Shown here in pieces: positions 148 to 20,000 of a stretch of DNA of 64,000 nt; positions within the stretch are counted from its first letter, which is position 1; each line of letters starts with the position of its first letter. Origin of the DNA: Candidatus Epilinea brevis (GTDB taxonomy: Bacteria; Chloroflexota; Anaerolineae; Epilineales; Epilineaceae); NCBI GenBank assembly GCA_016710785.1, contig JADJUE010000013.1, positions 43,007 through 107,006 of the forward strand, given 5' to 3'. The position numbers were made by a program, and so were the translations under genes. The notes beneath the pieces are model-generated. The model saw only the letters and a list, made by a program, of their open reading frames with translations. It did not search any database and was not told the origin of the DNA.

Positions 148-1011
148 ATGAAGCACCGTCTTTTCGCCGCTACCTGTCTGAGCCTCGCCGCGTTCGGCCT
201 GGGCTTGGCCATGGGCCTGCCCATGACCCATGCCGAAGGCATCACCAAGGGCATCGCCCCGTCGGTTCCGGTCGAGGCCGGCACCTTTGACATGGTCGTC
301 GATCCGCAGGAGATGGCTGAGGTCGAGCAGATCAGCGCCCGCATCGACGAGCATCTGTCCCTCGATGGCCAGGGTCTGGTGCAGCTGAACGCCGACGTCA
401 CGGCCGAGCAGTTGGGCGTGTCGCCAGAGTTCCTGGACAACTACCGCAAGGCCCTCACCTTCTCCAACCAGCTCATCAGCTCGGGTCAGATCACGGTCGA
501 CGCCAACCTGAAGGTCACCGCCACGGGCAACTTCGTGGGCTCGGTGAACATGCCGGCTCCGGGCAACCCGGGCGGCAAGGGCAAGGCGTCTGAGCCCGGT
601 GAGGGTGCCGTCGCCGACAACGACGTGCCGGACTGGTGCTCCTGGCGCTACAACTCGGGCGCGATGTACTACAACTCGTACAACACCTGGAACACCTACG
701 GCCGCAGCGGTCAGTACTACGGGCTCTGCAACTCCATGGCCGCCTACATCGGCTACCCCTGGATGAGCAGCTCGCTCAACAACATGTACACCTACAACAG
801 CAATTACTTCAACAACTACTGCTACCCCAACCAGGGCTCGTACTACTTCCTGCCTTACAGCAGCTACAACAGCTGCGGGGGCTACAACCCCTGCTACAAC
901 CAGTGCTCGATGAAGCCGGCCTACTTCTGGACCCGCAACTACACGTACTCCTACAGCTGCCGCTGCTACCAGTACCAGTGGCAGTGGTCGGGCTCCTGGG
1001 CCCGCTACTAG
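148..1011 (+). CDS. Secreted protein with a Tyr/Asn/Ser/Cys-rich low-complexity C-terminal region
   Basis: GGAGG at 131-135 lies 12 nt upstream of ATG 148. The N-terminus MKHRLFAATCLSLAAFGLGLAMGLPMTHA looks like a signal peptide. The last ~120 aa are dominated by Y, N, S, C and W (YYNSYNTWNTYG...CYNQC...YSYSCRCYQYQWQW), unusual in a 70% GC genome. A terminator follows. Confidence 0.55.
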   Translation: MKHRLFAATCLSLAAFGLGLAMGLPMTHAEGITKGIAPSVPVEAGTFDMVVDPQEMAEVEQISARIDEHLSLDGQGLVQLNADVTAEQLGVSPEFLDNYRKALTFSNQLISSGQITVDANLKVTATGNFVGSVNMPAPGNPGGKGKASEPGEGAVADNDVPDWCSWRYNSGAMYYNSYNTWNTYGRSGQYYGLCNSMAAYIGYPWMSSSLNNMYTYNSNYFNNYCYPNQGSYYFLPYSSYNSCGGYNPCYNQCSMKPAYFWTRNYTYSYSCRCYQYQWQWSGSWARY

Positions 1012-1060
1012 GCCCTGCCCACCCGCGGTCCTGACGACCGCGACCGCCGCACGCGATCCA

Positions 1061-1092
1061 GGCCCCCGCCGGCAACGGCGGGGGCCTTTTGC
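1061..1092 (+). terminator. Rho-independent terminator after the 148-1011 gene
   Basis: Stem GGCCCCCGCCG, loop GCAA, stem CGGCGGGGGCC, followed by TTTTGC. Confidence 0.5.
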
Positions 1093-1104
1093 GATGGTCC
1101 CGTA

Positions 1105-1275
1105 GGGGCGGGTTTGCGGCACGATCGAGAACCCCACGGCCGCCCGGCTGGTAAACCCGCCCTGCCGGTTTGCGCGCAACGGTCGGGACGGTGGGGGTTT
1201 CCGGGCGGTGTACGACAGGGCGGGTTTGCCGGTCGGGACGGTGGGGGTTTCCGGTGGTGGTTCAAACCCGCCCCT
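1105..1275. repeat. Structured repeat region upstream of the exosortase gene
   Basis: There are two copies of GGGCGGGTTTGC (1106-1117, 1218-1229), each partnered by the inverted copy AAACCCGCCC (1153-1162, 1264-1273). A 25-nt direct repeat CGGTCGGGACGGTGGGGGTTTCCGG occurs at 1180-1204 and 1230-1254. Confidence 0.5.
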
Positions 1276-1293
1276 ACGGGCTATCATCCGCCG

Positions 1294-2838
1294 ATGGCAT
1301 TCCGTCTGTTTGTCGGCCGGCGACCAGGGCCGACCGCCGCCTTGGCCAACCTCGCCATCTGGGGCCTGTGGCTCTGGCTCTTCCGTTCCGTCCTCGCGCA
1401 TCTGGGCAAGATCTACGCGCGTCAGGACATGAGCGTCAGCTTGGTCGCCTTGATCGGGATCCTGGGGCTCCTGGCCTGGCGCGCCCGCGGTCGCCGGCCA
1501 TCGTTCGCCGACTGGGCTCGCGCCCCTCGGCCGCGGCCGGCGCCGGCGCTCTTGGCCCTGGGCGCGGCCCTAGCCTACCTGGGTGTGGCCCGCTTCCTGG
1601 ACATCCACATCCTGGAGGACGCCCTGTTCGCCTTGGGCAGCTATGGCCTGGCCGGCCTGTGGGTGGCTCCTTCCGCCTGGCGCCGAGGCTGGCCGGTGCT
1701 GCTGCTGCTGGTGGCCACCCTGCCTTTCGGCTACCACCTGGACACCTTCGTGGGCTATCCGCTGCGGCTGTGGACGGCGGGGGCCGCCGCGACGATCCTC
1801 GGCGGGCGGGTGCCGGCGGGCGGCGGTGCGGAGGCCATCCTGCTCTTGGAGAACCAGGTGGCCGCGGTGGACCTGGCCTGCAGCGGGGTCAAGGGCTTGT
1901 GGACGGGGTCCCTGTTGCTCCTGGCCGCCGCCTGGCTGAGCGGCGCCGGCCTCGGTTGGCGCCTGGTGCTGGCCGCTGCCGTGCAGAACCTGCTCCTGAT
2001 CCTGGCCAACCTGCTGCGGGTGACCGTGCTGGCCGAGGTGGGCCTGGGCCTGGGGCAGCCCGTCGTCGCCGGCTGGCTGCACCTGCCGCTGGGCGTCCTG
2101 GGCTTCGCCGCGGCGGCATTGGTGGGTCTGCGCTGCCTGCGCGGGCCGGGCACCGCGCGGGCGGTGGACGGCGACAGATGGAAGACTGGTCCGTCCGAGC
2201 CCTACGCCATGCCGGACCGCCTGTCGGTGACCGCCGCCATCCTGCTCGCCCTGCTGCTGCTGAACCTTGCCTACCGCCCGCGCCCTCCTATACTCGCTCG
2301 CGCCGCCGCGAGCGGTGGCGGGACGGCCTCGCCCTGGGTCTGGCCGGCAACGCTGGCGGTGAAGGCCCTGCCCCTCAAGCCGTCGGACGCGGCCTGGCTG
2401 GCCGCCGACGGCGCCGATGCCGTGGAGCGCGTGCGCTTCCGGCATGGGGAGCTGCGGGGATCGCTGATCCTGGTGCGCGCTGGCACCTGGCGGGCCCACC
2501 ACGCGCCCGAGCGCTGCTTCGAGGTCTACGGCCTGAAGCAGCTGGACAGCAGTCCGGTGGTCCTCGAGGGCGGCGGCGGCCTGCGCCAGGTCACCCTGGG
2601 CGGCGCCGACGGCCGACCCAGCCATGGCGCGCTCTATTGGTTCCAGAGCGCTAGCGGACGGATGACGGGCGACTACGCGGCGCGGATCTGGGCCGACCTG
2701 CCGCCGCATCGGGAACCTTGGGTGCTGGCCTCAGTTCTCTTTGACGGACCCGTCGATGCCGAGGGTCCGGCGACAACCGATCTGGTCAACGCATTGCGCC
2801 GCGCCATCGACGCGGGCTGGAAAGGATCGACCCCATGA
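1294..2838 (+). CDS. Exosortase family protein with a C-terminal EpsI-like domain (fusion)
   Basis: The N-terminal region is a polytopic membrane domain. It carries the exosortase signature segments VDLACSGVKGLW (active-site Cys in the CSG motif) and ANLLRVTVLAEV (Asn/Arg motif). The ~200-aa soluble C-terminal domain resembles EpsI. The stop overlaps the next start (ATGA at 2835-2838). The upstream M at 1114 lies in the repeat region, so ATG 1294 (MAFRLF) was chosen. Confidence 0.7.
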   Translation: MAFRLFVGRRPGPTAALANLAIWGLWLWLFRSVLAHLGKIYARQDMSVSLVALIGILGLLAWRARGRRPSFADWARAPRPRPAPALLALGAALAYLGVARFLDIHILEDALFALGSYGLAGLWVAPSAWRRGWPVLLLLVATLPFGYHLDTFVGYPLRLWTAGAAATILGGRVPAGGGAEAILLLENQVAAVDLACSGVKGLWTGSLLLLAAAWLSGAGLGWRLVLAAAVQNLLLILANLLRVTVLAEVGLGLGQPVVAGWLHLPLGVLGFAAAALVGLRCLRGPGTARAVDGDRWKTGPSEPYAMPDRLSVTAAILLALLLLNLAYRPRPPILARAAASGGGTASPWVWPATLAVKALPLKPSDAAWLAADGADAVERVRFRHGELRGSLILVRAGTWRAHHAPERCFEVYGLKQLDSSPVVLEGGGGLRQVTLGGADGRPSHGALYWFQSASGRMTGDYAARIWADLPPHREPWVLASVLFDGPVDAEGPATTDLVNALRRAIDAGWKGSTP

Positions 2839-5800
2839 TCAAGCGCAGACTTCCCGGCCGCTCGTGGATCGGCTGGGACCCCCTGGGTGCGGGCCTCTTC
2901 TGGACCTGGAACCTGATCTTCGTGGCCTTCATGCTGCTGGGCTTCGGCCCGGCCCTGCTGCCGGAACTGCTGCGCACGGCCGGCCAGGGTGACGTGCCCT
3001 GGACCTTCGTCGGCCTGATCGCGGTTCTGACGGCCGTCCCGCTGGTTGCCCTGCTCCTGGGCTACTGGCGGCTGCGCGGCGACGGGCGGGGGCTCTTCGC
3101 CCTGGGCTTTGCCGTGGAAGGTCCGCTCATGGGCCTTCTGGCCCTGCGCGTCTTCGGCTTTCGCGAGGCCAACCCGGCGATGGCCCTGCTGCTGGCCCTG
3201 ATGTTCCTCGGCCTATCTACCTACCTATGGCAGCTGCTTGACCCGGGCATCGCCGCGCGGGGACGGGAGGCGCAACTGGCCCGCTGGACGGGCCTTTGCC
3301 TGTTGGCTTTGGCCGGCGTCTACGCCGCGGTCTGGGCGGCCTTCTACCTGCCGCCCTTCGGGCTGAAGATGGTGGAGGTGGCGCGCGACACCCTGGCCCA
3401 TCCGCTGGAGGCATTGCGGAACTACTGGAACGACCTCTGGCACGAAGGCTGGTCGCAGGTGCTGTTCGGGCTGCTCCTGCCGCCGACCGCGATCTTGACC
3501 GCCGTCCTGGTGTTTGCCCTGCCGGTCCTGTCCGTCGGGCATTGGCTGGCCGCATGGCGGCGAGCGGGCCGGGACCTGGCGGCGCGCTTCGGGCGGCGGC
3601 AGACCGCGGCCTTGGGCCTGGGGACGGCGGTCGCCGCGGTGTTGGCGCTGGTGCTGGCGTCGCGGCAGCCGCAGGCCGGGGCCTTCGCCGCCTTGGAGCG
3701 GCCGCCGGCGGACACCGTGGAAACGCAGGCCCTGCTCGAGCGCTCGGGCGCCATTCGCGAGGGCTTGCTCAACGCCTACCTGGCGGGCCAACGCTATCGG
3801 AGCGCCCGGGGTGAGGTGGGCCATATCCATCATGTCTACTGGGCGATGTCCTTCGGCGGACGCAAGCTGATCAGCGACGAAGCGGCCAGGCAGGTGCAGG
3901 CCGCCTACGAGCTCGTGGCCGGCCCCATGTACTACCAGCCGGCGCAGGCTCCGGCAGCCTACGGAACCCCTGGCAAGGCGTCCCAAAAAATGGCGGTGCT
4001 GCAGTCAGACCCTCGCCGCGCCGCCGAACTCTACCAGGATTTCTTCGACGCCCCCATCGACCTGGCCGAGCGGGAGACCATCCTGCGCACGGTCTCGGCC
4101 AACTGGAACCTGCAGCAGGCGTCGCTGGACCGCCTGGCCATCGATGACCGCGAGGTGCTCGTCAGCCGGCGCGACCTGTCGATCCGCGCCGCGGCCGACG
4201 GCTGGGCCGAGCTGGAGCTGCACGAGGTCTACCAGAACCAGACCACGCAGCAGCAGGAGGTGGTCTATCACTTCAACCTGCCAGAGAGCGCGGCGGTCAG
4301 CGGCCTGTGGCTGGGCGAGACGGAGGACCGCGCGCAGGCGGCGGCCTTTCGCGTGGCCCCACGCGGCGCCGCGCAGCAAGTCTACAAGGAAGAACGGGCG
4401 CGTCGCGTCGACCCGGCGCTGCTGGAGCAGATAGGACCACGGCAGTACCGCCTGCGCGTCTTACCGGTGCCGGCCCGGACGTGGCGACGTGTCGAAGGAG
4501 AGCGGAACGAACCGATCGCCGGGCCACGTCTGCACCTGTGGATGACCTTCGTGGTGCCGGCGCGGCCTATCCAGGCGGTGGACGGGATCGACGGGGTTGA
4601 CGGGATCGCAGCGGCCGCCGCCGGCGACGCGAACAGTGAGCCGGACGGGCCGCGGGTCTGGCCCCTGCCGCGGCTGGCCGAGCGGCGCAACGCCTACTGG
4701 GACGGGAGCACCGCATGGACCTTGCCGGAGGGCGTCGCGGCGCCGAAAGGGGACGTCTGGCTGCCGGACAACCTGCCGGCCGAGCCCGCCGCCGCCGCCC
4801 GCTCGCCAGAGGGCGTCACCATGGGTTATGGCGCCTGGCGCGTGGAGGCGCGACCCGCCGCGTCAGCGGCCGCGGACGGTGACCTTCCGCGGCCGCGCCG
4901 GCTGGCGGTGCTCGTCGATCGCTCCCGCAGCATGGCGGGGCGGCGCGCCGAGCTGGACGCGGCGCTGGCCCAGCTGTCGGCCGCGGCGTCGCCGGGCTCC
5001 GTCGATGTCATCCTCAGCAGCGCCGCGCCGCGGGGCGAGCCGGCGTCGCGCGTCGCCCTGGCTGCGCTGCGCCCGGAGCAGCTCCTGGCCTTCGGCGGCC
5101 AGGATCCAGCGGAACTGCTGCGCCAGCTGCGTGACCTGGATCCCGACGGAGGCCATGACGCTGTCCTGGTGCTGACCGATGACAGCCCCTACCTGCTCGG
5201 CGCCGCGAACACCTCGACGACTGCCTCCTGGCGCGGCGGACCCCTGTGGCTGGTGCACCTGGGCGACCGCCTGCCTCAGGGTTACGACGATGGAACCCTG
5301 GACGCCGTCCTTGCCTCCGGCGGCGGGGTGGCCGGGTCGGTGGCCGAGGCCCTGCGGCGCTGGGGGCTGCGGCAGCGCGCGGACGCGGCGGGGGACCTGC
5401 TGGATCAGGTCGACGGCTGGACCTTCATGGTCGACCGGGCGGCCGGAGCGCCGGCGGATGCCGGGCCGAGCACGCCGCTCCGCAAGGCCGCCGCCCGCCA
5501 GCTGATCCTCGCCCAGATCCGCGCCGCCGGCAACGCCGAGGTCGACAACGCCGAACGCGACCGGCTGCAGGCCCTGGCCAAGGCCGAGGGCGTCGTCAGC
5601 CCCTTCTCCTCGATGATCGTCCTGATCGATGAACGGCAGCGGCAGCGCCTGGACGCGCTGGAAGCGGATCAGGACCGTTTCGAGCGCGAGAACGATGGGG
5701 CCGCGGACGAGCCGGCCCTGCTGGCGGTCACGGCCGTGCCGGAGCCGGAGACCTGGATGCTGCTGCTGCTGGCGGCGGGCTTGCTTTGGTGGCAGCGGCG

Positions 5801-5849
5801 GCTGGTGGTCGGGGGGCTGGAGACCGGTCGGCTGGGGCGGCGGGGATGA
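2835..5849 (+). CDS. PEP-CTERM sorting-signal protein with an N-terminal polytopic membrane region, a VIT-like domain and a vWA domain (probable exosortase cargo)
   Basis: The C-terminus VPEPETWMLLLLAAGLLWWQRRL has the PEP motif, a TM helix and an Arg cluster. The vWA MIDAS-like motif is LAVLVDRSRSMAG, followed by LVLTDD. A VIT-like segment lies upstream (FNLPESAAVSGLWLGETEDRAQAAAFRVAPRG...DPALLEQ...YRLRVLPVP). About 250 aa of hydrophobic helices sit at the N-terminus. The gene is translationally coupled to the exosortase. Confidence 0.7.
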   Translation: MIKRRLPGRSWIGWDPLGAGLFWTWNLIFVAFMLLGFGPALLPELLRTAGQGDVPWTFVGLIAVLTAVPLVALLLGYWRLRGDGRGLFALGFAVEGPLMGLLALRVFGFREANPAMALLLALMFLGLSTYLWQLLDPGIAARGREAQLARWTGLCLLALAGVYAAVWAAFYLPPFGLKMVEVARDTLAHPLEALRNYWNDLWHEGWSQVLFGLLLPPTAILTAVLVFALPVLSVGHWLAAWRRAGRDLAARFGRRQTAALGLGTAVAAVLALVLASRQPQAGAFAALERPPADTVETQALLERSGAIREGLLNAYLAGQRYRSARGEVGHIHHVYWAMSFGGRKLISDEAARQVQAAYELVAGPMYYQPAQAPAAYGTPGKASQKMAVLQSDPRRAAELYQDFFDAPIDLAERETILRTVSANWNLQQASLDRLAIDDREVLVSRRDLSIRAAADGWAELELHEVYQNQTTQQQEVVYHFNLPESAAVSGLWLGETEDRAQAAAFRVAPRGAAQQVYKEERARRVDPALLEQIGPRQYRLRVLPVPARTWRRVEGERNEPIAGPRLHLWMTFVVPARPIQAVDGIDGVDGIAAAAAGDANSEPDGPRVWPLPRLAERRNAYWDGSTAWTLPEGVAAPKGDVWLPDNLPAEPAAAARSPEGVTMGYGAWRVEARPAASAAADGDLPRPRRLAVLVDRSRSMAGRRAELDAALAQLSAAASPGSVDVILSSAAPRGEPASRVALAALRPEQLLAFGGQDPAELLRQLRDLDPDGGHDAVLVLTDDSPYLLGAANTSTTASWRGGPLWLVHLGDRLPQGYDDGTLDAVLASGGGVAGSVAEALRRWGLRQRADAAGDLLDQVDGWTFMVDRAAGAPADAGPSTPLRKAAARQLILAQIRAAGNAEVDNAERDRLQALAKAEGVVSPFSSMIVLIDERQRQRLDALEADQDRFERENDGAADEPALLAVTAVPEPETWMLLLLAAGLLWWQRRLVVGGLETGRLGRRG

Positions 5850-5888
5850 TGGCGGGGGAATGGGGGGAACGGGGGTGGTCGCGCTGCC

Positions 5889-5951
5889 GGGCGAAGCATC
5901 CGCGCTGAGACAAACAGGTCATCGGGTCTGGATGCGGCGGATGCTTCGCCC
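5889..5951. repeat. Perfect 15-bp inverted repeat (long hairpin) downstream of the PEP-CTERM gene
   Basis: GGGCGAAGCATCCGC at 5889-5903 pairs with GCGGATGCTTCGCCC at 5937-5951 across a 33-nt loop. No U-tract follows, so this is not a canonical intrinsic terminator. Confidence 0.4.
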
Positions 5952-6016
5952 CTACCGGGATCCGGGATGATCACGTGGAGATCTTCTGACGTGGGACCAG
6001 GGCGCGTGAGGCAAGG

Positions 6017-7210
6017 TCACCACCCGCCCATCAGCGCCAGGCCCGCCCTTTCCAGTCGCCGCCAGGCCGACTGCGCCAGCAGGCCGCCCGCCGTGCGGAA
6101 GGACCAGCTGTGGGTGGTGCCGCCCTCGACGATCGTCACCCGGTACTGCAGGCCGGCCTTCAGCGGTGCGCGCGGCAGGAGGACGATGGCGTCGCGGCTG
6201 TCCAGCACCACCCGTCCCGTGCTCTGCGTGCCGCTGTTGGGGTTGACGTAACGCGTCTCGTCCAACAGGCAGTGGGGGTACTGGCTGCCCTCGCCATCGA
6301 CGAGCGCGGAGAAGCTGACGGCGGGCTTGCGGTCGCCGGCGCCGATCATCAGGACGATGGGCGCGCCGGTGGGCGCCTTATAGCCCGGGCAGCTCGTCAG
6401 CGGATCGGGGAACTCGTTGCCGCCGAAGCTCAGGTTGGGTAGGGTCTCGCCCTCTTCGGGGTAGCGGACCGGGAAGCGGAAGCCATCCGGCAGCTTCTTC
6501 CGGCCCCGGCCCACCTCCAGCGTCGCCCCGTAGGCCCAGCCGCTGCCCGCCTCGCGGTACTCGCCGAAGCCGCTGACCGTCAGCTCCGGGTCGAGCACCG
6601 CCACCATGTGGAAGGTGCCGGTCATCCAGAAGTTCACCGGTACCCGGCTGTCGGTGCTGGCCATCGAGGACACGAAGACGTTGCCGTTCTTGGCCGCGTC
6701 GAGGCCCTCGGCGCTGTAGAAGGGCTTGGTCGGGTCCTCGGAATGGCCCACCTCGTCGTTCTTCACCATGTAGCGGGCATGCAGTTCGCCCCCGCGGCTC
6801 CAGACCTCGTTCTCCGTGACCGGGCCCAAGCCGGCCAGAGCCCGGTGGCGGTTGGCCTCGACCAGGGCGGCGGGCAGGGGCTTGAGCGGCGTGGCGCTGG
6901 GCGGGGCTGTCGCGGTGGCCGTTGGCGTCGCCGTGGGCGGCGGGGGCGTCGGGGTTTCCGTGGGCGGCAAGGGCGTGGCGGTTGCCGTCGGCGGAACCGG
7001 GGTGGGCATGCCGGGCAGGTCCGCCATCCTGATCCCGCGCAGGGCCAGGGGCAGGTAGATGCGGGCGACCGGCTCGTCGGCGGCGGCCGGGCCGACCAGC
7101 GCGCCGAGCAGCGCCGAGGACAGGGCCAGCGCCGCCGTCAGGCGCCTGAGGCCGGATTGTCGTCGCGACGGATGCGCCGGCGAGCGGCGGTCATGGGGGA
7201 TCGGCAGCAT
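6017..7210 (-). CDS. Secreted protein with a Pro/Thr-rich linker and a possible CAP/SCP-like domain
   Basis: AAGGAAGGAG lies immediately upstream of ATG 7210. The N-terminus MLPIPHDRR...LTAALALSSALLGALVGPAAA is a signal peptide, followed by the linker PTPVPPTATATPLPPTETPTPPPP. The segment EANRHRALAGLGPV...GELHARYMV..DEVGHSE is reminiscent of CAP-superfamily proteins; this assignment is weak. Confidence 0.45.
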   Translation of the reverse strand: MLPIPHDRRSPAHPSRRQSGLRRLTAALALSSALLGALVGPAAADEPVARIYLPLALRGIRMADLPGMPTPVPPTATATPLPPTETPTPPPPTATPTATATAPPSATPLKPLPAALVEANRHRALAGLGPVTENEVWSRGGELHARYMVKNDEVGHSEDPTKPFYSAEGLDAAKNGNVFVSSMASTDSRVPVNFWMTGTFHMVAVLDPELTVSGFGEYREAGSGWAYGATLEVGRGRKKLPDGFRFPVRYPEEGETLPNLSFGGNEFPDPLTSCPGYKAPTGAPIVLMIGAGDRKPAVSFSALVDGEGSQYPHCLLDETRYVNPNSGTQSTGRVVLDSRDAIVLLPRAPLKAGLQYRVTIVEGGTTHSWSFRTAGGLLAQSAWRRLERAGLALMGGW

Positions 7211-7270
7211 GCGGGCTCCTTCCTTGGCGGTCATCGGACGCTGTCGCCCCCTCTTCTGGGGGAGGGGGCG

Positions 7271-10200
7271 TCAAGGGCATGCCGTCAGCCGCCCGGCGAT
7301 GCCGCGGTAGATGTCGGCCAGGTCCTCGCCGTCGGGGGCGAAGTAGTAGTCGGCGCGGGTCGAAGCCACCGCGCCCAGCAGCTGGTCCAGCACGTCGTCC
7401 GTCTCGCCCAGGCCGATGCTGAAGATCCGCGAGCCCGCGGCCTTGGCCGCCGAAGCCTGCTTCAGCACCGTGCATTCCTGGTTGGGGCATTCCGGGGCGA
7501 TGGACCCCGGCCCGAAGGGCACACGGTTGGGCAGGCCGTCGGTGAGCAGGATCATGACCGGCTGGTTGTTGCCCAGGCGTGGCCCGCGGGCGAGCGCATC
7601 CTGTCCCTGGGCCAAGGACAAATCGATGCGCGTGCCCTGGGCGATGCGCCCCGGCAGGCGGTCGAGGGCCGCCAGCACGGCGCCGCGGTCGCCCGACAGC
7701 CCGATCTCCGTCCAGGCCGCGTCGTTGAAGCCCACGACAGCCACCCGATCCCGGGCGCCGTAGGCGTTGGGCTCCAGCTTCATCTGGGCCACGAAGGCGC
7801 GGGCCGCGTCCAAGGCCGCCGCGTGCTTGCTGCGCCCCCCGCGGGTCTCGCGGTACATGCTCGTCGACATGTCCAGCACAAGTACGGCATCGGTGAAGAC
7901 GCTCTCCGGCCGGCAGAGCAGCCGCTCGGTAAAGGGCAGGTAGATCGCGTAATGCCCGGGCGTGGGCGTGCGGGTCACGGTGGGGGAGGCCGTGGCCGAG
8001 GCCGTGACGGTGGCCGTGGCGCTCGGGCTGCTCGTGGATGTCGACGACGCTGTCGCCGTGGCCGCGGGCACCGTGGGGGTGGGCGTCAGAGCGAAGCAGA
8101 GCGACTCGATGTCCCCCAGGCCCGCCGCCTTGCCGAAGGTCTGGTTGGCGCCGGCGTAGACCGTCTCGCGGGTGACGTCGTAGCCACTGACGTTGTCGTA
8201 CCAGGCCAGACCGCCGCTGTAGATCTGGATCGGGTCGATCACGGTGGACACCACCTGGTCCAGCCAGGGCAGGGAGGCCAGGGTGCCCCAGGAGGACTCG
8301 GCATGCAGGAGGTTGTCCTGATAGAACTCGGGAACGGTCAAGGGCATGTAGCGCTCGCCGGCCTTCATGGTCAAGACCATGTCGCCGCCGGCGGCGATCA
8401 GCACCCGACTGTCGGCCTGGCGATCGCGCAGCCCCAGCACCAGGTCGCCATCCTCCCGGAACTCGATGTCCACCAACATGGGCTGGTCGATGGTCTGTCC
8501 GTCGTCCACGACGCGCGGCCAGGGGTTCCAGACCGGCTGTCGGCCGTAGTCGAGGTCCACGCGCAACACCTCGGTCATCTCGGAGCCGTCCGGCCGGCTG
8601 CGGTAGACATAGGCCGCCAGTGGGCGCGGCGCGGGGTTGTTGGTGGCCTGGGCATCGCGCGTGCGGCTGTCCACCACGCCGTGGAAGAGCCAGCCCTCCT
8701 TCCAGGCCAGGGCGAAGGGGCGGGCGTCTTCGGCCCAGTCCAGGCCGGCCGCGCCGTGGGGAAAGGCGCCTAGCAGCCGCCCGGAGGGCACGGCGAAGCG
8801 ATACACGTAGCCGTCGCTCAGGTTGACGGCGAAGAGCTGGTCGCCGGCGGTGGTCAGCTCCAGGTCGCCCAGGGCGGTGACCCCCACACTGTTGGCCGCG
8901 GCCTGGTCGAAGCCCTGGTTGAAGCGATGGCTGTCGCGGCCGGCCGGCAGCGCGGCCCAGGGCAGCACCGTGCCCCGCGCCAGGTCCACCTGGTAGATGC
9001 CACCCGGGCCCAAGGGCCCGTAACCCGCCAGGCGCTTGGTGTAGGCGCCCAGGTAGATGCGGTCGCGGGTGAGGTCCATGGCGACGCCGAAGACCGCGCC
9101 CACCTGGTCCTGGAAGGCCAGGTTGTGGTGCAGGGCCAGGTCATCGCCCACCGTGTCGTTGAGGGCCACCACCGCGGCCTGCCCCTTCAGCCAGGCCTGG
9201 CCGTAGGCGTTGCCCGAGCCATCCGTCATGGGCACGAACTGGGTGACCGCCAGGTAGGGGTTGCCGCCCTGGCAGCTGTCCTTGACGTGCTGGTAGGCGT
9301 GGGCGTAGGCGGTGGCGGTGGAGGGCGGCGGCGCCGTCGCCTTGGCCGCCGCCGTGCCGATGGCCACCGCAGTGGGCGCCACCAGGGTGAGTTGGCGGGG
9401 CACCTCGACGGCGGCCGTGGCCAAGGCGCGCAGGCGGCCGGCCTCGATGGTCGGCGCTTCGGCGGTCAGGATGGGTTGCAAGGCGGTGGCGGTCTCCGCC
9501 GCCGCCGTGCGCCGGACCTCCTGGGTGGGGGCGTGGGCCGTGCGTGTGGCCACCACCTGGGTGGCCCGCGCGGCGTCGCGGGCGGCAGCGGTGGCCGTGG
9601 CCGCCTGGGCCGCCTCCACGGTCAGGGTGACCAGCACCTCCGGTTCTACCTGGTTGCCCGGATCGCAGAGCACGGCGACGTCGCCGGCGGCCAGTCGGCT
9701 GGGAGCGGCGGCGCCTTCCAGTATCCGGCCGGAGCGCAGGCGCATGCCCGAGCCGGCGTCGAAGCTGTCCAGGGCCAGGGCGGGGCCGGGGTAACCGGGG
9801 TCCGGCGGGCGCGCCGGGGCGACCAGCCAGCCCAGGCCGGGCAGGGGCGCCACGGCGCCCCAGGCCGTCTCCAGGCCGGCGGCGTCGCTGTCCCGGAACC
9901 ATTGCGGGCTGCGTATGAGCTCCCAACCGCTGCCGCCCTCGCGTTCGCGGGCCGGGAGCAGGTCGCCCAGGCTGGCGCCGCCGGGGCAGCCCGGCTGCCA
10001 GACGCAATCCGGATCCAGGTCTACGCGGCGGTCGCGCAGGCCCACCACGGGGAGGCCCGAGGGAAGAAAGGCGATGTCGGCCACCAGCGGCTGGTCGGGC
10101 GAGCTGTTGGCCGCCTCGGTGGTCCAGGGGCCCCAGGGGGCGCCGCGCTGGTAGCTGCTGTCGGTGCCCAGGCCGAAGCGCAGCACCTGGGCCATCTCGG

Positions 10201-10966
10201 CGCCATCGACGCGCGAGCGGTACACGCGGCCTTCCAGCAGGCCGAGGACGCTGTCGTCCTCGCGGCTGTTCACCAGGCCATGGTACAGCCAGTCGCCTTC
10301 GACCCCCAGGCCGAGCATGCGCGCGTCGCGCGACCAGCGCTCGCGCACCGAACCATGGGCGAAGGCGCCCAACACCTGGCCGCTTGGCAGGCTCAGGCGG
10401 TAGACCTTGCCGTCGAAGAGGTTGGCGACGAAGAGTTGGCTGCCGTCCAGGGCCAGGTCCAGATCGCCCAGACCGGTCTTGCCGGCCCAGTCCGGGTTCT
10501 CCGCCGCGCCCGAGCCGTCGGCGGCGGCGTGCCGGTCCGGGCCGGCCGGCAGCTGGGCGAGCAGCGTCACCTGGCCGTCGGCCAGACCTACGCGATACAC
10601 GGCGCCCGGTCCGCCCGGCCCGAAGCGGCCACCGCTGCGATGCCAGGCGCCGGCATAGACAACGCCGCGCCCGCCGTCGTAGGCCAGGCCGTAGATGTCC
10701 CCCAGCTGGGCGCGTCTGGCCAGGCTGGGGGAGCGCTCGCCCAGGGACTGGCGGGCCAACAGCAGGGCGGGTTCCGTTGCCGGCTGGTCCTCGGGCCGCC
10801 AGCCGCCCTGGACGGCGACGGCCACATAGGGGTCGATGCCCTGACAGGCGGCGTTCAGGGCGGCGGCGTCCGGCAGGGGGGCCGGCTGGGCGCGGGTGGC
10901 TCCGTCCAGCAAGGCCAGGGCGAGGAGGGTCGAGGCGGCCGCAAGGCCCAGATGCCGGCTGCGCAT
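7271..10966 (-). CDS. Large secreted protein with an internal ~400-aa duplication, Thr/Pro/Ala-rich linkers and a C-terminal vWA domain
   Basis: The ATG at 10966 (MRSRHLGLAAASTLLALALLDGATRAQP, a signal peptide) is preferred over the TTG at 11005. The two N-terminal repeats each start CQG(I/G)(D/N)PY and share the motifs LGDL(D/E)L...DG.QLF..NL.DG.VYR. The C-terminal vWA domain has DMSTSM and LLTDG. Confidence 0.6.
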   Translation of the reverse strand: MRSRHLGLAAASTLLALALLDGATRAQPAPLPDAAALNAACQGIDPYVAVAVQGGWRPEDQPATEPALLLARQSLGERSPSLARRAQLGDIYGLAYDGGRGVVYAGAWHRSGGRFGPGGPGAVYRVGLADGQVTLLAQLPAGPDRHAAADGSGAAENPDWAGKTGLGDLDLALDGSQLFVANLFDGKVYRLSLPSGQVLGAFAHGSVRERWSRDARMLGLGVEGDWLYHGLVNSREDDSVLGLLEGRVYRSRVDGAEMAQVLRFGLGTDSSYQRGAPWGPWTTEAANSSPDQPLVADIAFLPSGLPVVGLRDRRVDLDPDCVWQPGCPGGASLGDLLPAREREGGSGWELIRSPQWFRDSDAAGLETAWGAVAPLPGLGWLVAPARPPDPGYPGPALALDSFDAGSGMRLRSGRILEGAAAPSRLAAGDVAVLCDPGNQVEPEVLVTLTVEAAQAATATAAARDAARATQVVATRTAHAPTQEVRRTAAAETATALQPILTAEAPTIEAGRLRALATAAVEVPRQLTLVAPTAVAIGTAAAKATAPPPSTATAYAHAYQHVKDSCQGGNPYLAVTQFVPMTDGSGNAYGQAWLKGQAAVVALNDTVGDDLALHHNLAFQDQVGAVFGVAMDLTRDRIYLGAYTKRLAGYGPLGPGGIYQVDLARGTVLPWAALPAGRDSHRFNQGFDQAAANSVGVTALGDLELTTAGDQLFAVNLSDGYVYRFAVPSGRLLGAFPHGAAGLDWAEDARPFALAWKEGWLFHGVVDSRTRDAQATNNPAPRPLAAYVYRSRPDGSEMTEVLRVDLDYGRQPVWNPWPRVVDDGQTIDQPMLVDIEFREDGDLVLGLRDRQADSRVLIAAGGDMVLTMKAGERYMPLTVPEFYQDNLLHAESSWGTLASLPWLDQVVSTVIDPIQIYSGGLAWYDNVSGYDVTRETVYAGANQTFGKAAGLGDIESLCFALTPTPTVPAATATASSTSTSSPSATATVTASATASPTVTRTPTPGHYAIYLPFTERLLCRPESVFTDAVLVLDMSTSMYRETRGGRSKHAAALDAARAFVAQMKLEPNAYGARDRVAVVGFNDAAWTEIGLSGDRGAVLAALDRLPGRIAQGTRIDLSLAQGQDALARGPRLGNNQPVMILLTDGLPNRVPFGPGSIAPECPNQECTVLKQASAAKAAGSRIFSIGLGETDDVLDQLLGAVASTRADYYFAPDGEDLADIYRGIAGRLTACP

Positions 10967-11001
10967 GCGCTGTCCTTTGTTCGCGGCTCGGCGAACCCGG
11001 T

Positions 11002-11406
11002 TCAAACGGGTTGCGGCCAGGTGGCCAGGATGATGCCCACGGTGATGCAGGCCACGGCCAGGATCATGAAGAACAGGTGCAGCAGTCCGGCGTCCTCATC
11101 CGCCAACCCGGGCAAGGCGACCTGCACCTGCGGTCCGAATCGCAGCTGGTGGAAGCGGCGCATGCCGGCCTTGCCGGCCAGCAAGCCGTAGAGTACAGCC
11201 GAGAGGCCCATGAGCGCCGGTGTGCCGCGGAGGCGGTCCGCCCAGACCAGGGCCAGAAAGGGCAGGGCGATACAGAGGAGGGCGCGGCCGGGCTGCAGGC
11301 GCAGCCGTCGGCCGTCGCGCGCCCGTTGCCAGGCCAGGGCGGCGACGGGCAAGGCCGCCAGACAGGCGATGAGCGTCAGGTAGCCGGCTCCGGCGGGAAT
11401 GGTCAT
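11002..11406 (-). CDS. Small integral membrane protein (hypothetical)
   Basis: The 134-aa product has hydrophobic helices. It overlaps the downstream large gene by 4 nt, suggesting an operon. Confidence 0.4.
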   Translation of the reverse strand: MTIPAGAGYLTLIACLAALPVAALAWQRARDGRRLRLQPGRALLCIALPFLALVWADRLRGTPALMGLSAVLYGLLAGKAGMRRFHQLRFGPQVQVALPGLADEDAGLLHLFFMILAVACITVGIILATWPQPV

Positions 11407-17020: not shown

Positions 17021-20000
17021 TCAGCCGGACCGATTCTGGTGCCGAGGGCTCGGCACCGGTGACCGGGCCAGACGAAAGCCCACCGCATCCGGACGCGCGT
17101 CTGGATACGTGCCATCGCGGTACACCGCCAGGGCCAGGCTGCGGTCGAAGAGCGAGGAGCCGCCGCGCACGATCCGCCGCTCGCGGGCCGCTGCGGCGGG
17201 GTCTTCGCGACCGTCGTCGGGATCGTAGGGATAGCCGAAGGCCGGCTCATAGGGATGCTCCCCGGCCCATAAGCTTGAGGTCCATTCATCGACGTTGCCG
17301 GTGATGTCCACCAGACCCTCGGGGGTGTCGCCCGAAGGAAAGACGCCCACGGGGCTGGCCTGCCGCAGCCTTGCCTCGCTGGTGTTGGCCCAGAGGCGAT
17401 CGAAGGCATCGCCCCAGGCGAAGCGCCGGCCCGCAAGGCCGCGCGCGGCGGCCTCCCATTCCACCTCCGTCGGCAGGCGGAACGCCAGGCCGCTCTGGGC
17501 CGCAAGCCAACGGCAATAGGCGCGAGCCTCGTACCAGGACACCCCGACCACCGGCTGCGCGCGGCGGTTGTGCCGGGAATCCCGCCAATACGCCGGTTCG
17601 ACCTCCTGGTGGTAGCGCGAGCGGGTGGCGAGGATGGCCTCGAAGGCATCGTCGTCGATGGCGATCCACCCGCGCCAGCGCTCGACCGCCTCCTCCGAAC
17701 CCATCCGGCCTTCGGCCACCAGCCGTTCGAAGGCGCCCGGCTGTTCGCGAAAGCGCCGCCGCCAGTCGCGGTTGTTGGCCCGCGAGGCTTCATCGGGCAG
17801 TTCGCCGCGCTGCCAGCGGCGGCCGTCGTCGGTGTCCCACCAGCGCTCGTCTCCATAGCCGCCCGCGGCCATGAAGCAGGCCCATTCGGCGTTGGTCACC
17901 GGGGTCACGCCGATCTGGAAGGACGCGATGGGCACTGCATGCCGGGGCAAATGCGCCTCGCTGGTGCCGCTGGCTCCAGGTGCCGACCAGGCGATGGGCG
18001 TATCGTCGCCGATGGGGTAGGCTCCACCCGGGATCGTCACCAAGGGCGGCAGGAGGTAGTCGCCGTGGGGACCGACGCGGCGTGACAGGCGCGGATCGCC
18101 AAGGTCGCCCCATACAAAGCCGGCGGCGATCCGCTCGCGCAGGTCCGCCCCGGGATCGCGGCTGCGGTCCACGAGCGCCCAGCGCAGCCTGTCGAGCATG
18201 GCGCGTGGCAGGCGGTCCCGCACGTCGTCCTGCATGGCGCAGCGCCCGGCCAGGACGAGGTTGGCCTCCAAGAGACCGGCCACAAAGGCGTCCGGGGGGT
18301 CGGCCATGGCCGCCGCAAGCAGGGCGGTCTCCTCCCAACCCGTCTGAGGCAGCGGCGGCAGGGGGTCGGCGGGGTCGAGGCTGTCGAGCAGGGCCGCCAG
18401 CGATGGCTGGATCTCCGCCTCGCGCCAGGCGCCGCGTGCGAGATCCGCCGCGAGGCCAGGCGCCGCTGCCAGCCGCCGTGCCGCGAAGTACTCCTGCAAC
18501 AGCTGGTGCACGTAGAGCAGGGTGTCTGCCGCTTCGTCCTCGTCGAGCACGGCCAGAGCCTCGCCGGCGGCGACGATGCGCTCGTCGTCGTCGCAGTCCA
18601 GCAGTGCCAAGGCATCGTCATAACGGATGCGCACCTGTGACGCCCCGCCGTCCGCGCGCCCGCGCTGCATGCCAAAGGCGAGGTCGGCAAGCTTGGGCAG
18701 GAGCGGACCGCGCTCCGGCAGATCCCAGGACGAGCGCCACACGCCGCTGGTCAGGCGCCGTCTGTCCCGGGCATCGACGAGCGCGCCTGGTTCGAAGAGC
18801 GGATGGCCCCGCTCCACCTCGCGGCGCAAGGCTTGCCGGACGAAGCCGGTGAACAAGGCCGCGCGTCCGACAGGCATCGCGCCTGTGGCTTCCACCTGCT
18901 CGACGAGCAGCGACAGGAAGTAAGGGCTTCGGAGCAGCTCCAGCTGCGGCGATCCCTCGACTGTCTGCCAGACCTCGCGCCAACGTGCCGGGCAGTTCTG
19001 CACCAGGAAGTCGCGCACCTGCCGGTCGGCCAAGGGTTCGATCCTGACCTGCGGTACGCGCAAATCGGGTGTCGAGAGGGGCTGACTGTAGTCGAGGCCG
19101 CGGCAGCTGAAGATGACGCGGTTGCCCGGGCGCTCCGCCGCCAGCCGCTGCAGCCAGATCTTCCACAGCTGCACCCGTGCGTGCAGGTCCTGTTCGCCGG
19201 TCGCCGGCATCTCGTTGAGCGCGTCGAGCAGCAAGATGAGCCGGCCCTGGCCAAGGAGATCTTTGAAGGGCGGAAGCTCCGGGTTGCGGGCGGCCCAGCG
19301 ATCGGCGAGCCAGCGGTCAGGCGGTGGCGGGGGTTTGCCCGGATCCGCCGCGTACTGATTGAGGCCGATGAAGAAGGTCAGCGGCGCGCGGTCCGGGTCA
19401 CCGGCGCGCAGGGCGTCGACGGCTAGGTCCAGCTCCAGCCGACGCAGCAAGGTGCTCTTGCCGCTGCCCGGGGGACCCAGCAGGACGAGTGCCGGATCCG
19501 GCAAGGCGGCCAGGAGCGCCTGCAGGTCTCCGCCGCGTTCGGCTGCTTCCTCCCAGCGACCTTGCGGTGCCTGCTCCCCCTGATCGAGGAGCAGGGTCAG
19601 GCCCACGAAGCGCTTGTCGAGGCGGTAACGCGGCTGGCTCCATTCGGCGACCCGGCCGAGACGGTACTCCCGCTGGCTGGCTGGCTTGTGCCGCGCCGCG
19701 GCCAGTACCTGCTCCTTGGTCAGCACGACCTGGCCCTGATCACCGCGCAGCACCTGGGAAAGGGCCTCGAAAGTCTCGGGCACCGTCCGGTTCAGCACCG
19801 TGGCGCCCGAATTGGGCGAAGGGTCCGCGCCGGTCTCGCGCCAGTCGACGACCATGACGCGGTCTTCCGCCCCGATGGCGCCGGCGCTGCGCAGCGCGCG
19901 CGTGTCGTCCGGCAGGCCGGCGATGACCACCTGGGCGATCCGTTCGGCCTGCCCCAGGTCGCGCAGGCGGTGCTCGCCCAGGTCGCGAAAGCGCAGGCCT

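What the first reader, a model, noticed from the sequence alone, without database searches (positions are those of the whole stretch)
1105..5849. Exosortase-EpsI fusion translationally coupled to a VIT-vWA PEP-CTERM cargo with a polytopic N-terminus
The 1294-2838 product carries the exosortase hallmarks (CSG-cysteine segment VDLACSGVKGLW, Asn/Arg segment ANLLRV) fused to an EpsI-like soluble domain. Its stop overlaps the start of a 1004-aa protein ending in VPEPETWMLLLLAAGLLWWQRR, a textbook PEP-CTERM. That protein also has VIT-like and vWA (DRSRSM) domains. Unusually for a cargo, it begins with about 250 aa of multiple TM helices instead of a signal peptide. This looks like a dedicated single-cargo exosortase system. 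NCBI annotates a VIT-domain exosortase family (XrtN-type, from memory and unverified). The membrane-embedded N-terminus plus the EpsI fusion may represent a distinct variant.
Basis: partly seen in the sequence, partly recalled or inferred. Interest (0 to 1): 0.6.

Follow-up and report, generated by a model that had tools for sequence, protein, structure and literature searches.

The report
Exosortase O with its membrane-anchored cargo
This is an ordinary member of an already catalogued two-gene cassette of Chloroflexota bacteria, a membrane protease (exosortase O) and the single large surface protein it is thought to process; it has a name in the databases, but nobody has tested what it does.

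Summary
Two co-directional genes, 1294-2838 and 2835-5849, overlap by ATGA. All quoted motifs are present.

The first product passes NCBI's curated model for exosortase O (TIGR04489, 281 bits, cut-off 250). It fails the XrtN model (30 bits, cut-off 200). The second product passes TIGR02921, the 'PEP_integral' family PEP-CTERM protein (530 bits, cut-off 200). Proteins 97-99% identical already exist in public data, and the exosortase one is annotated 'exosortase O'.

The polytopic N-terminus is not a new variant. It is the defining trait of TIGR02921, and Haft et al. noted such a family in 2006.

- The pairing is near-universal: an XrtO gene lies directly upstream in 72 of 74 informative loci from other species genomes.
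- No third gene is conserved with the pair.
- No second PEP-CTERM tail was found in the window or in 1.1 Mb of related loci.
- The AlphaFold2 model (pLDDT 88.7) shows seven TM helices, then an ectodomain resembling a whole inter-alpha-inhibitor heavy chain (VIT plus vWA, MIDAS D-x-S-x-S...D), a disordered linker and the PEP-CTERM helix.
- The C-terminal domain of XrtO is only remotely EpsI-like.

The likely mechanism, inferred and not shown, is cleavage at VPEP by the Cys-Arg-His site while the N-terminal anchor keeps the cargo in the membrane. Novelty: already known. Interest: low.

The parts
1294..2838 (+). xrtO gene, encoding exosortase O (514 aa)
   Evidence: TIGR04489 scores 281 bits (cut-off 250) over residues 28-488 against profile positions 1-449 of 451. 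PF09721 scores 79 bits. P0121, 97% identical, is named 'exosortase O' by NCBI.
1366..2124 (+). Polytopic exosortase core (residues 25-277) with three active-site motifs: C196-S-G198 (nt 1879-1887), N239-x-x-R242 (nt 2008-2019) and H263-x-x-x-G267 (nt 2080-2094)
   Evidence: C196, S197, G198, N239, R242, H263 and G267 are invariant in 99 homologues. These are the motifs Haft et al. 2006 defined for the EpsH family. The AlphaFold2 model (pLDDT 87) shows the helices.
2218..2271 (+). Extra TM helix (residues 309-326) that returns the chain to the outer face of the membrane
   Evidence: AF2 helix H309-326, a hydropathy peak at 305-328, and a basic loop at 283-304 before it.
2311..2823 (+). Extracytoplasmic alpha/beta C-terminal domain of XrtO (residues 340-510), remotely EpsI-like, with an invariant H403-x-P405-E406-x-C408 motif (nt 2500-2517)
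2835..2838 (+). ATGA stop/start overlap between xrtO and the cargo gene
   Evidence: Read directly from the sequence. An overlap of 4 or 1 nt recurs in 18 of 73 related loci, and the gap is at most 150 nt in 70 of 73.
2835..5849 (+). Cargo gene, encoding a TIGR02921-family PEP-CTERM integral membrane protein (1004 aa)
   Evidence: TIGR02921 scores 530 bits (cut-off 200) over residues 19-983 against profile positions 10-913 of 922. There are 174 homologues, several named 'TIGR02921 family PEP-CTERM protein'.
2877..3665 (+). Seven-helix N-terminal membrane domain (residues 15-277), predicted N-terminus in and end of TM7 out
   Evidence: AF2 helices 15-50, 56-79, 84-108, 114-135, 144-169, 206-252 and 254-275, with pLDDT above 90. 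Hydropathy and basic-residue counts agree: the loop 242-255 has 6 K+R. It matches no family other than TIGR02921.
3666..4145 (+). Conserved helical juxtamembrane ectodomain (residues 278-437)
   Evidence: AF2 helices 280-436. Q280, R308, G310, L311, N313, R320, Y321 and G326 are invariant. No Pfam or NCBIfam domain matches.
4200..4493 (+). VIT domain (residues 456-553)
   Evidence: PF08487 scores 42.3 bits (GA 26.5). The model shows beta-sandwich strands at 441-575.
4896..5444 (+). vWA-fold domain (about residues 688-870) with MIDAS-type D695-x-S697-x-S699 (nt 4917-4931) and D782
5733..5801 (+). PEP-CTERM sorting signal (residues 967-989): VPEP, hydrophobic helix, then QRR. A 15-residue tail follows (nt 5802-5846).
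   Evidence: On the C-terminal half, TIGR02595 scores 18.1 bits (cut-off 16) and PF07589 scores 21.6 bits (GA 20.7). V968, P969, E970 and L976 are invariant, and P971, E973 and W974 are at least 90% conserved in 115 sequences. The linker 954-968 is disordered, with pLDDT below 50.
1099..1280 (+). Nested inverted repeats in the 5' leader, directly upstream of xrtO. Role unknown, and whether they belong to the system is uncertain.
   Evidence: Inverted-repeat arms at 1099-1135/1244-1280 and 1129-1167/1213-1251, plus a 25-nt direct repeat. The RNA fold is -141 kcal/mol with z -7.8. No Rfam family matches it. It is 98% identical in L081.

Best explanation
This is a dedicated two-gene protein-sorting cassette that the databases already name: exosortase O (XrtO) and its one substrate, a TIGR02921-family PEP-CTERM integral membrane protein, here in a Chloroflexota (Ardenticatenia/Anaerolineae-type) chromosome.

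**Shown**
- The cargo has seven N-terminal TM helices with the N-terminus predicted inside.
- It then has an extracytoplasmic region of about 690 residues: a helical juxtamembrane domain followed by a module resembling an inter-alpha-inhibitor heavy chain (VIT plus vWA, with a D-x-S-x-S...D metal site).
- A disordered acidic linker leads to a C-terminal VPEP motif, a TM helix and a basic cluster.
- XrtO keeps the invariant Cys, Arg and His of exosortases. It has one extra TM helix that places a divergent EpsI-like domain outside the membrane.
- The two genes are adjacent in essentially all species that have either one.

**Inferred**
- XrtO recognises the family-specific T-G-V-P-E-P-x-E-W signal at the outer face of the membrane.
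- It cleaves there through a Cys196 acyl-enzyme and removes the C-terminal helix.
- The N-terminal seven-helix domain keeps the mature protein in the cytoplasmic membrane, so processing remodels or re-attaches the C-terminus and does not release the protein.
- The acyl intermediate is resolved either by water or by transfer to an envelope acceptor.
- The exposed MIDAS site then binds a ligand in a metal-dependent way.
For: - Family scores: TIGR04489 281 bits (cut-off 250) and TIGR02921 530 bits (cut-off 200), both full length.
- Catalytic motifs: C-S-G, N-x-x-R and H-x-x-x-G are invariant in 99 XrtO homologues. They match the EpsH-family definition (PMC1569441).
- Sorting signal: V-P-E of the VPEP motif is invariant in 115 cargo homologues and the second Pro is at least 90% conserved. 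It passes TIGR02595 and PF07589.
- Topology: seven TM helices and positive-inside counts, a disordered linker at 954-968 and a confident terminal helix at 971-996.
- Synteny: an XrtO gene lies upstream on the same strand in 73 of 74 informative loci, directly upstream in 72, out of 435 species genomes that encode the cargo. No third gene is conserved. There is an ATGA overlap here and in about a quarter of loci.
- Single cargo, locally: one PEP-CTERM tail in the 64-kb window and none besides the cargo in 1.1 Mb of related loci.
Against: - No experiment on XrtO or TIGR02921 was found. Cleavage, the cleavage site and the fate of the new C-terminus are all inferred by analogy with other exosortases and archaeosortase A.
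- The one-cargo claim is tested only locally, not genome-wide.
- The locus is not in an exopolysaccharide gene cluster, so the usual EPS link of exosortases gives no hint of an acceptor.
- The structures are predictions. No exosortase structure exists in the PDB for comparison.
- A cargo that stays membrane-anchored after processing does not fit the classical 'sorting to the exterior' picture.
Confidence: 0.8

Rival explanations
1. Covalent tether model. XrtO acts as a transpeptidase or transesterase and joins the new C-terminus of the cargo to a cell-envelope polymer (wall polysaccharide, sheath or S-layer glycan) or to a lipid. The protein would then be fixed at both ends, bridging the cytoplasmic membrane and the wall. 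This would be a bacterial counterpart of inter-alpha-inhibitor heavy chains, which lose a C-terminal propeptide as their C-terminus is ester-linked to chondroitin sulfate. It is a sub-case of the best explanation, with a specific fate for the acyl intermediate.
For: - It has the same four MIDAS ligand types as ITIH1, which uses D298, S300, S302 and D403, against D695, S697, S699 and D782 here.
- ITI heavy chains are ester-linked through their C-termini to GalNAc when their C-terminal prodomains are removed (PMC7170535).
- The model names show VIT-containing proteins filed as targets of separate sorting systems (TIGR03788 sortase target, TIGR04477 XrtN system, TIGR04286 MSEP-CTERM). That each is a dedicated one-target system is from my memory.
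- The N-terminal anchor makes simple release pointless.
Against: - No acceptor, ligase or glycan-synthesis gene is conserved next to the pair.
- The resemblance to ITIH is one of fold, with 11-12% identity.
- The ITIH linkage chemistry is not known to use a Cys enzyme of this kind.
- Nothing here distinguishes transfer from hydrolysis.
Confidence: 0.25
2. Stable-complex model. The PEP-CTERM helix is not cleaved in the steady state. It serves as an eighth TM helix that docks the cargo onto XrtO, as a pseudo-substrate or a regulated substrate. The two proteins then work as one membrane complex, with the cargo's conserved seven-helix domain doing the real work, for example as a transporter, receptor or enzyme.
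For: - The seven-helix domain and the juxtamembrane region carry many invariant polar residues (N26, Q280, R308, N313, R320; E95, D136, R142 and R150 at 90% or more). That is more than a passive anchor needs.
- The terminal helix is modelled with high confidence and the whole-chain pTM is 0.87.
- The gene linkage is strict one-to-one.
Against: - The exosortase Cys, Arg and His are invariant in all 99 XrtO sequences, which argues for retained catalysis.
- The linker before VPEP is disordered and exposed, as expected of a cleavage site.
- The seven-helix domain matches no transporter or enzyme family.
Confidence: 0.12
3. One reading: a member or new variant of the XrtN-type VIT-domain exosortase system, made distinct by the membrane-embedded N-terminus and the EpsI fusion.
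For: - There are weak sub-threshold similarities: XrtN 29.9 bits, and the XrtN-target model 51-53 bits on the C-terminal 95 residues.
- The domain logic is shared: VIT, then a dedicated exosortase signal.
Against: - Both XrtN models fall far below their cut-offs (200 and 250). The XrtO and TIGR02921 models pass at full length.
- Proteins 97-99% identical to both products are in public data, and the exosortase one (P0121) is named 'exosortase O' by NCBI.
- Polytopic PEP-CTERM proteins were described in 2006.
Confidence: 0.02

Closest known systems
Exosortase O (XrtO, NCBIfam TIGR04489) paired with the TIGR02921 'PEP_integral' family PEP-CTERM protein
   Same: - Both products pass the curated cut-offs at full length.
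- The gene order, strand and adjacency are the same as in 72 of 74 informative loci from other species genomes.
- The invariant motifs are the same.
- Near-identical proteins are in public data, and the exosortase one is already named 'exosortase O'.
   Different: Nothing of substance. This cargo has a 15-residue tail after the basic cluster and a 20-30 residue Gly/Asp/Ala-rich insertion at about residues 581-606. Only its closest relatives share that insertion.
Classical PEP-CTERM/exosortase systems (XrtA/EpsH, Haft et al. 2006, PMC1569441)
   Same: - Cys-x-Gly, Asn-x-x-Arg and His-x-x-x-Gly motifs in a protein with at least eight TM helices.
- A PEP motif, TM helix and basic cluster at the C-terminus of the substrate.
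- An EpsI-related region fused to some exosortases.
   Different: - Classical systems have many substrates, with a median of eight. Those substrates have signal peptides and no internal TM helices, and the systems sit in EPS gene clusters of bacteria with outer membranes.
- Here there is one adjacent substrate with seven N-terminal TM helices, no EPS genes nearby, and a Chloroflexota host.
XrtN (TIGR04476) with the XrtN-system VIT-domain protein (TIGR04477); also MSEP-CTERM proteins (TIGR04286) and the marine proteobacterial sortase target (TIGR03788)
   Same: - A VIT-containing protein filed as the target of its own named sorting system.
- There are weak hits to all three target models, on the VIT domain or the C-terminal region.
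   Different: All scores are far below the cut-offs (51 against 250, 19-21 against 150, 33-35 against 552). These are a different exosortase clade or a different enzyme class (sortase). I could not compare the N-terminal architecture of those families here.
Inter-alpha-inhibitor heavy chains (ITIH1, PDB 6FPY)
   Same: - Fold-level match across the whole heavy chain (Foldseek E 2.3e-12, about 660 columns).
- VIT plus vWA with a D-x-S-x-S...D MIDAS site.
- A C-terminal segment that is removed on maturation in ITIH, and is predicted to be removed here.
   Different: - Identity is 11-12%.
- ITIH is a secreted eukaryotic protein with no membrane domain.
- Its C-terminal processing chemistry and enzymes are unrelated to exosortases.
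EpsI family (TIGR02914 / Pfam DUF3485)
   Same: - The position is the same: fused after the exosortase core through an extra TM helix.
- There are weak hits of both models on one stretch, residues 402-466, which includes H-x-P-E-x-C.
- One divergent XrtO-type protein passes the DUF3485 threshold.
   Different: - The direct scores are below threshold (13.3 against 42.8; 18-19 against 26.1).
- A profile of the XrtO C-domain finds only 413 cluster representatives among 1.84 billion; the 150 listed are XrtO-type fusions or short fragments. The domain is therefore a divergent, closed subgroup.

Membership tests
Exosortase / EpsH family (PF09721, TIGR04178 signature) | Family HMM above its curated cut-off | tested here: met
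   PF09721 scores 79 bits against GA 25.7. The TIGR04178 signature scores 34.5 against 23. All 25 aligned homologues hit PF09721.
Exosortase / EpsH family | Invariant Cys-x-Gly, Asn-x-x-Arg and His-x-x-x-Gly motifs (Haft 2006) | tested here: met
   C196-S-G198, N239-L-L-R242 and H263-L-P-L-G267 are invariant in 99 sequences.
Exosortase / EpsH family | At least eight transmembrane helices | tested here: met
   The AF2 model has helices spanning residues 13-282, plus 309-326.
Exosortase / EpsH family | Cleavage of PEP-CTERM substrates | not testable with these tools
   This needs biochemistry or proteomics. No paper on XrtO was found.
Exosortase O (TIGR04489) | Full-length score at or above 250 bits | tested here: met
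   281 bits, residues 28-488 against profile positions 1-449 of 451.
Exosortase O (TIGR04489) | Encoded next to a TIGR02921-family protein | tested here: met
   There is an ATGA overlap here. An XrtO gene lies directly upstream in 72 of 74 informative loci from other species genomes.
Exosortase N (TIGR04476) | Score at or above 200 bits | tested here: not met
   29.9 bits, covering only part of the protein.
TIGR02921 'PEP_integral' family PEP-CTERM protein | Full-length score at or above 200 bits | tested here: met
   530.2 bits, residues 19-983 against profile positions 10-913 of 922.
TIGR02921 'PEP_integral' family PEP-CTERM protein | C-terminal PEP-CTERM domain | tested here: met
   On the C-terminal half, TIGR02595 scores 18.1 against 16 and PF07589 scores 21.6 against 20.7. 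On the full protein PF07589 scores 20.6 against 20.7. V-P-E of VPEP is invariant in 115 homologues and the second Pro is at least 90% conserved.
TIGR02921 'PEP_integral' family PEP-CTERM protein | Multiple predicted TM segments before the PEP-CTERM | tested here: met
   Seven helices.
XrtN-system VIT-domain protein (TIGR04477) | Score at or above 250 bits | tested here: not met
   51-53 bits, with the best stretch on the C-terminal 95 residues.
EpsI family (TIGR02914 / PF11984) | Family HMM above its cut-off on the C-terminal domain of XrtO | tested here: inconclusive
   Direct scores are 13.3 against 42.8 and 19.4 against 26.1. Six of 25 homologues hit at E no higher than 0.01. There is a transitive link: P0380 matches the C-domain profile at 3.5e-26 and passes DUF3485 at 29.8 bits.
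VIT domain (PF08487) | HMM above GA | tested here: met
   42.3 bits against 26.5.
vWA domain | Sequence HMM above GA | tested here: not met
   VWA_2 scores 16 bits against 27. There is no hit on the full-length protein.
vWA domain | vWA fold with MIDAS residues | tested here: met
Dedicated single-target sorting system | The cargo is the only PEP-CTERM protein in the genome | not testable with these tools
   Only local evidence exists: one such tail in the 64-kb window and none beside the cargo in 1.1 Mb of related loci. No whole genome could be scanned.

The most novel reading that the evidence does not exclude
XrtO does not release its cargo. Instead it covalently transfers the cargo's C-terminus to a wall or sheath polysaccharide. 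The result would be a protein fixed at both ends, linking the cytoplasmic membrane to the envelope in Chloroflexota, which lack a classical outer membrane. This would be a prokaryotic counterpart of the heavy-chain-to-glycosaminoglycan ester linkage of inter-alpha-inhibitor. On this reading, the ITI-heavy-chain-like VIT-vWA module is an ancient cassette for carrying a C-terminal covalent attachment.
Probability: 0.2. Interest if true: 0.6.

Novelty: already known. Interest (0 to 1): 0.2.

Why it matters
As a finding it adds little.

The system itself remains unstudied. It is an exosortase with one substrate that cannot leave the membrane, in a phylum without a classical outer membrane. That makes it a clean one-enzyme, one-substrate case for asking what exosortases do chemically after cleavage. 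The full-length structural match of the ectodomain to inter-alpha-inhibitor heavy chains gives a concrete hypothesis to test: C-terminal transfer to a glycan.

Tried and rejected
- **XrtN-type assignment.** Rejected on scores.
- **Literature.** Searches for XrtO, 'exosortase O', TIGR02921 and TIGR04489 found nothing relevant. A search for exosortase with Chloroflexi was swamped by unrelated genome papers. The Haft 2012 J Bacteriol paper (PMC3256604) is not held.
- **Sequence search of the PDB.** A profile of the cargo family gave nothing significant.
- **Fold of the seven-helix domain.** Whole-chain searches are dominated by vWA and ITIH hits.
- **A third conserved partner gene.** None exists. 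The commonest flank family occurs in 10 of 80 loci. The CAP-like and 1244-aa vWA neighbours are shared only with close relatives L001, L004 and L036; in L081 a VWA-domain gene lies at the corresponding downstream position.
- **The 5' leader as a known RNA.** No Rfam family matches it; the two sub-threshold hits cover only the upstream terminator-like hairpin. Its core word occurs only here in the window and only at the same place in L081. The two copies are 98% identical, so no covariation test is possible.
- **Promoter and terminator scan of 900-6100.** Nothing informative.
- **Genome-wide PEP-CTERM count.** Not possible with the tools.

Full report
**1. What is in the sequence**

Two co-directional ORFs are present as described: 1294..2838 (514 aa) and 2835..5849 (1004 aa). 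The region has about 70% G+C. This explains the many long alternative-frame ORFs. Only the two named frames have family support.

The stop of the first gene and the start of the second overlap as ATGA at 2835-2838. A GAAAGGA run ends 8 nt upstream of that ATG.

The longer TTG start at 1114 is unlikely for three reasons:
- A public protein 97% identical has the same 514-aa length (P0121).
- Met1 is invariant across 25 aligned homologues.
- The family profile starts at residue 28.

The one correction is that VPEPETWMLLLLAAGLLWWQRR is followed by 15 further residues. Relatives have tails of 0-20 residues.

**2. Family identity**

The table gives the NCBIfam results.

| Product | Model | Bits | Cut-off | Coverage |
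|---|---|---|---|---|
| First | TIGR04489, exosortase O | 281 | 250 | end to end |
| First | XrtN | 29.9 | 200 | partial |
| Second | TIGR02921, 'PEP_integral' | 530 | 200 | end to end |
| Second | XrtN-target model | 51 | 250 | best stretch on the last 95 residues |

Pfam adds Exosortase_EpsH at 79 bits and VIT at 42 bits. Scanned on the C-terminal half alone, the sorting signal passes both TIGR02595 (18.1 against 16) and PF07589 (21.6 against 20.7).

Homologues are plentiful. Many carry the names 'exosortase O', 'TIGR02921 family PEP-CTERM protein' or 'putative PEP-CTERM system integral membrane protein'. They include proteins 97-99% identical to these two.

The correct filing is XrtO with TIGR02921.

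**3. The 'unusual' polytopic N-terminus is the known hallmark**

Haft et al. [quoted passage not shown] The same paper says some EpsH proteins carry a C-terminal region homologous to EpsI (PMC1569441). That this three-member family is TIGR02921 rests on my memory of the model's description. The short name 'PEP_integral' agrees with it.

**4. Anatomy of the cargo**

The AlphaFold2 model used 115 aligned sequences and is confident (mean pLDDT 88.7, pTM 0.87). Along the chain it shows:
- Seven TM helices between residues 15 and 275, with two amphipathic helices (172-202) in the loop after TM5.
- A helical juxtamembrane domain (280-437).
- A beta-sandwich containing the Pfam VIT match (441-575).
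- A Rossmann-like alpha/beta domain (about 688-870).
- A small helical/beta C-terminal region.
- A disordered acidic linker (954-968, pLDDT below 50).
- A final helix (971-996).

Basic-residue counts fit an N-terminus-in topology. The N-terminal 16 residues have 4 K+R and the loop 242-255 has 6. This puts residues 278-967 outside the cell and the QRR cluster inside, as a PEP-CTERM signal requires.

The fold searches agree on the ectodomain:
- Foldseek's only significant family is inter-alpha-inhibitor heavy chain 1 (6FPY, E 2.3e-12), aligned over about 660 columns, which is the whole heavy chain.
- The sequence-level vWA signal is weak (VWA_2 16 bits against 27).

The metal-site residues D695 and S697 and the later D782 are invariant, and S699 is conserved in at least 90% of sequences. 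ITIH1 coordinates Mg2+ with the same four residue types, D298, S300, S302 and D403 (PMC7170535). The conserved G-G-Q at 754-756 sits where I recall many vWA domains having G-G-T (from memory, not tested).

The N-terminal 455 residues match no family except TIGR02921.

**5. Anatomy of XrtO**

C196-S-G198, N239-x-x-R242 and H263-x-x-x-G267 are invariant in 99 homologues. These are the three motifs that define the EpsH family and its proposed Cys-Arg-His site.

The model (pLDDT 87) has the polytopic core, a basic cytoplasmic loop, one extra TM helix (309-326), and then an alpha/beta domain (355-510). By topology that domain lies outside the membrane. It carries an invariant H403-x-P-E-x-C408 and several other invariant residues.

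Its relation to EpsI is real but distant:
- Both EpsI models hit the same stretch below threshold: TIGR02914 at 13.3 against 42.8, and DUF3485 at 18-19 against 26.1.
- Six of 25 homologues give E no higher than 0.01.
- A profile of the domain, searched against 1.84 billion representatives, finds only 413 proteins. The 150 listed are XrtO-type fusions of about 500 aa or shorter fragments.
- One of those, P0380 (E 3.5e-26 to the profile), passes the DUF3485 threshold at 29.8 bits.

**6. Genomic behaviour**

A scan of one genome per species found 435 genomes encoding a relative of the cargo. The best 80 are nearly all labelled as Chloroflexota lineages: Anaerolineae, Caldilineaceae, Ardenticatenaceae, Promineifilaceae, Thermoflexales and Roseilinea. 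The exceptions are two unclassified 'uncultured bacterium' records and one 'Roseobacter sp.' MAG.

- In 73 of the 74 loci with enough upstream DNA, an XrtO homologue lies within about 240 nt upstream on the same strand. In the remaining one, L006, it is 2.7 kb away. One of the 73, L034, gave an anomalous coordinate in the later stop/start estimate, so 72 of 74 are cleanly adjacent.
- The estimated stop/start distance is an overlap of 4 or 1 nt in 18 of 73 loci, and at most 150 nt in 70 of 73. Translational coupling is therefore common but not universal.
- No other gene travels with the pair. Window ORFs outside the pair match at most five loci. All-against-all clustering of flanking ORFs gives no family in more than 10 of 80 loci.
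- The rest of the window is ordinary chromosome, with Lon protease, an ABC-F ATPase and others. There are no exopolysaccharide genes next to the pair.
- A pattern search finds one credible PEP-CTERM tail in the 64-kb window. In 1.1 Mb of related loci it finds none other than the cargo itself, apart from one cargo fragment in L062.

This fits a one-enzyme, one-substrate system. A genome-wide count could not be run.

A 2.07-Mb contig of an Ardenticatenia MAG (GCA_016709185.1) carries the same locus with a 98% identical upstream region. The window therefore comes from that organism or a very close relative.

**7. Mechanism**

Shown by computation:
- Family membership.
- Conserved catalytic and signal motifs.
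- Predicted topology and fold.
- Strict gene pairing.

Inferred from the exosortase literature (PMC1569441):
- XrtO recognises the extended, family-specific signal (consensus V-T-G-V-P-E-P-E-E-W) at the outer membrane face.
- It cleaves the signal via a Cys196 thioester.

Specific to this family, by inference from the seven-helix anchor: the product stays in the membrane. Processing must therefore free or re-attach the C-terminus and cannot export the protein.

I rate 'XrtO processes this one cargo at VPEP' at about 0.8. Within that, the fate of the acyl intermediate is open. Transfer to an envelope glycan or lipid (the tether model, about 0.25) is attractive for two reasons. The ectodomain is a full ITI-heavy-chain-like module, and ITI heavy chains become ester-linked through their C-termini to chondroitin sulfate as a C-terminal prodomain is removed. 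But no acceptor-related gene is conserved nearby.

A non-cleaving stable complex (about 0.12) is disfavoured by the invariant catalytic residues.

**8. Novelty and score**

Both genes are routine members of curated families and near-identical sequences are already public, the exosortase one under the name 'exosortase O'. The two features flagged as possibly distinct are family hallmarks. This is 'already known'.

The system has no experimental literature that I could find. The biology is therefore open, but the finding does not open it further. Interest: 0.2.

Noticed in passing
window 1099-1280 (also L081 5800-5990): The 5' leader of xrtO is a set of nested inverted repeats. There are four GGGCGGGTTTG-type words in alternating orientation and a 25-nt direct repeat. 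As RNA it folds to -141 kcal/mol (z -7.8) and ends about 10 nt before the start codon. No Rfam family matches it. The core word occurs nowhere else in the window. The region is 98% identical in the Ardenticatenia MAG locus, so covariation cannot be tested.
   Followed up: partly
window 1060-1087: A perfect 12-bp G+C-rich hairpin with a 4-nt loop, followed by TTTT, lies 49 nt after the stop of the upstream gene. It looks like that gene's terminator, which would make xrtO and the cargo gene a separate transcription unit. The simple terminator scan did not call it because the T-run has only four T. Rfam gave only sub-threshold hits on it.
   Followed up: partly
window 148-1011 (+): The upstream gene probably starts at the ATG at 148. 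It would then give a 287-aa product, the same length as the gene called at this position in L081. It encodes a signal-peptide protein whose C-terminal third is an Asn/Tyr/Ser/Cys-rich low-complexity region. It has no Pfam or NCBIfam match.
   Followed up: partly
window 6017-7234 (-) and 7271-11005 (-): Two genes converge on the cassette from downstream. One is a 405-aa protein with a Pro/Thr-rich linker and a borderline CAP-domain hit. The other is a 1244-aa protein with a C-terminal vWA domain (VWA_2 at 60 bits). They accompany the cassette only in close relatives (L001, L004; L036 for the first gene only). In L081 a 1231-aa VWA-domain gene and a 397-aa gene sit at the corresponding positions. 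A second vWA protein next to a vWA cargo may be coincidence.
   Followed up: partly
window 17021-20521 (-): A 1166-aa protein combines an adenylate/guanylate cyclase domain, a NACHT NTPase and a C-terminal FGE-sulfatase domain. This is an unusual STAND-type architecture.
   Followed up: no
proteins P0186, P0170, P0205 and others (not in the window): Some XrtO homologues are about 820-850 aa long. They carry an N-terminal extension of about 340 residues with no Pfam match, placed before the exosortase core. This could be a real fusion or mis-called starts.
   Followed up: partly
L049 (JAYTNY010000733.1); L006 and L034: One cassette sits in a MAG labelled 'Roseobacter sp.', although the others in the list that carry a taxon label are Chloroflexota, so it is probably mis-binned. 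L006 has about 2.7 kb between xrtO and the cargo gene. L034 gave an anomalous XrtO stop position.
   Followed up: no
window cargo residues about 581-606 (nt about 4575-4652): There is a Gly/Asp/Ala-rich insertion (QAVDGIDGVDGIAAAAAGDANSEPDG) that most family members lack. P0005 has a comparable insertion at the same position, while the 86%-identical P0002 does not. It is modelled with low confidence (pLDDT 55-59).
   Followed up: no
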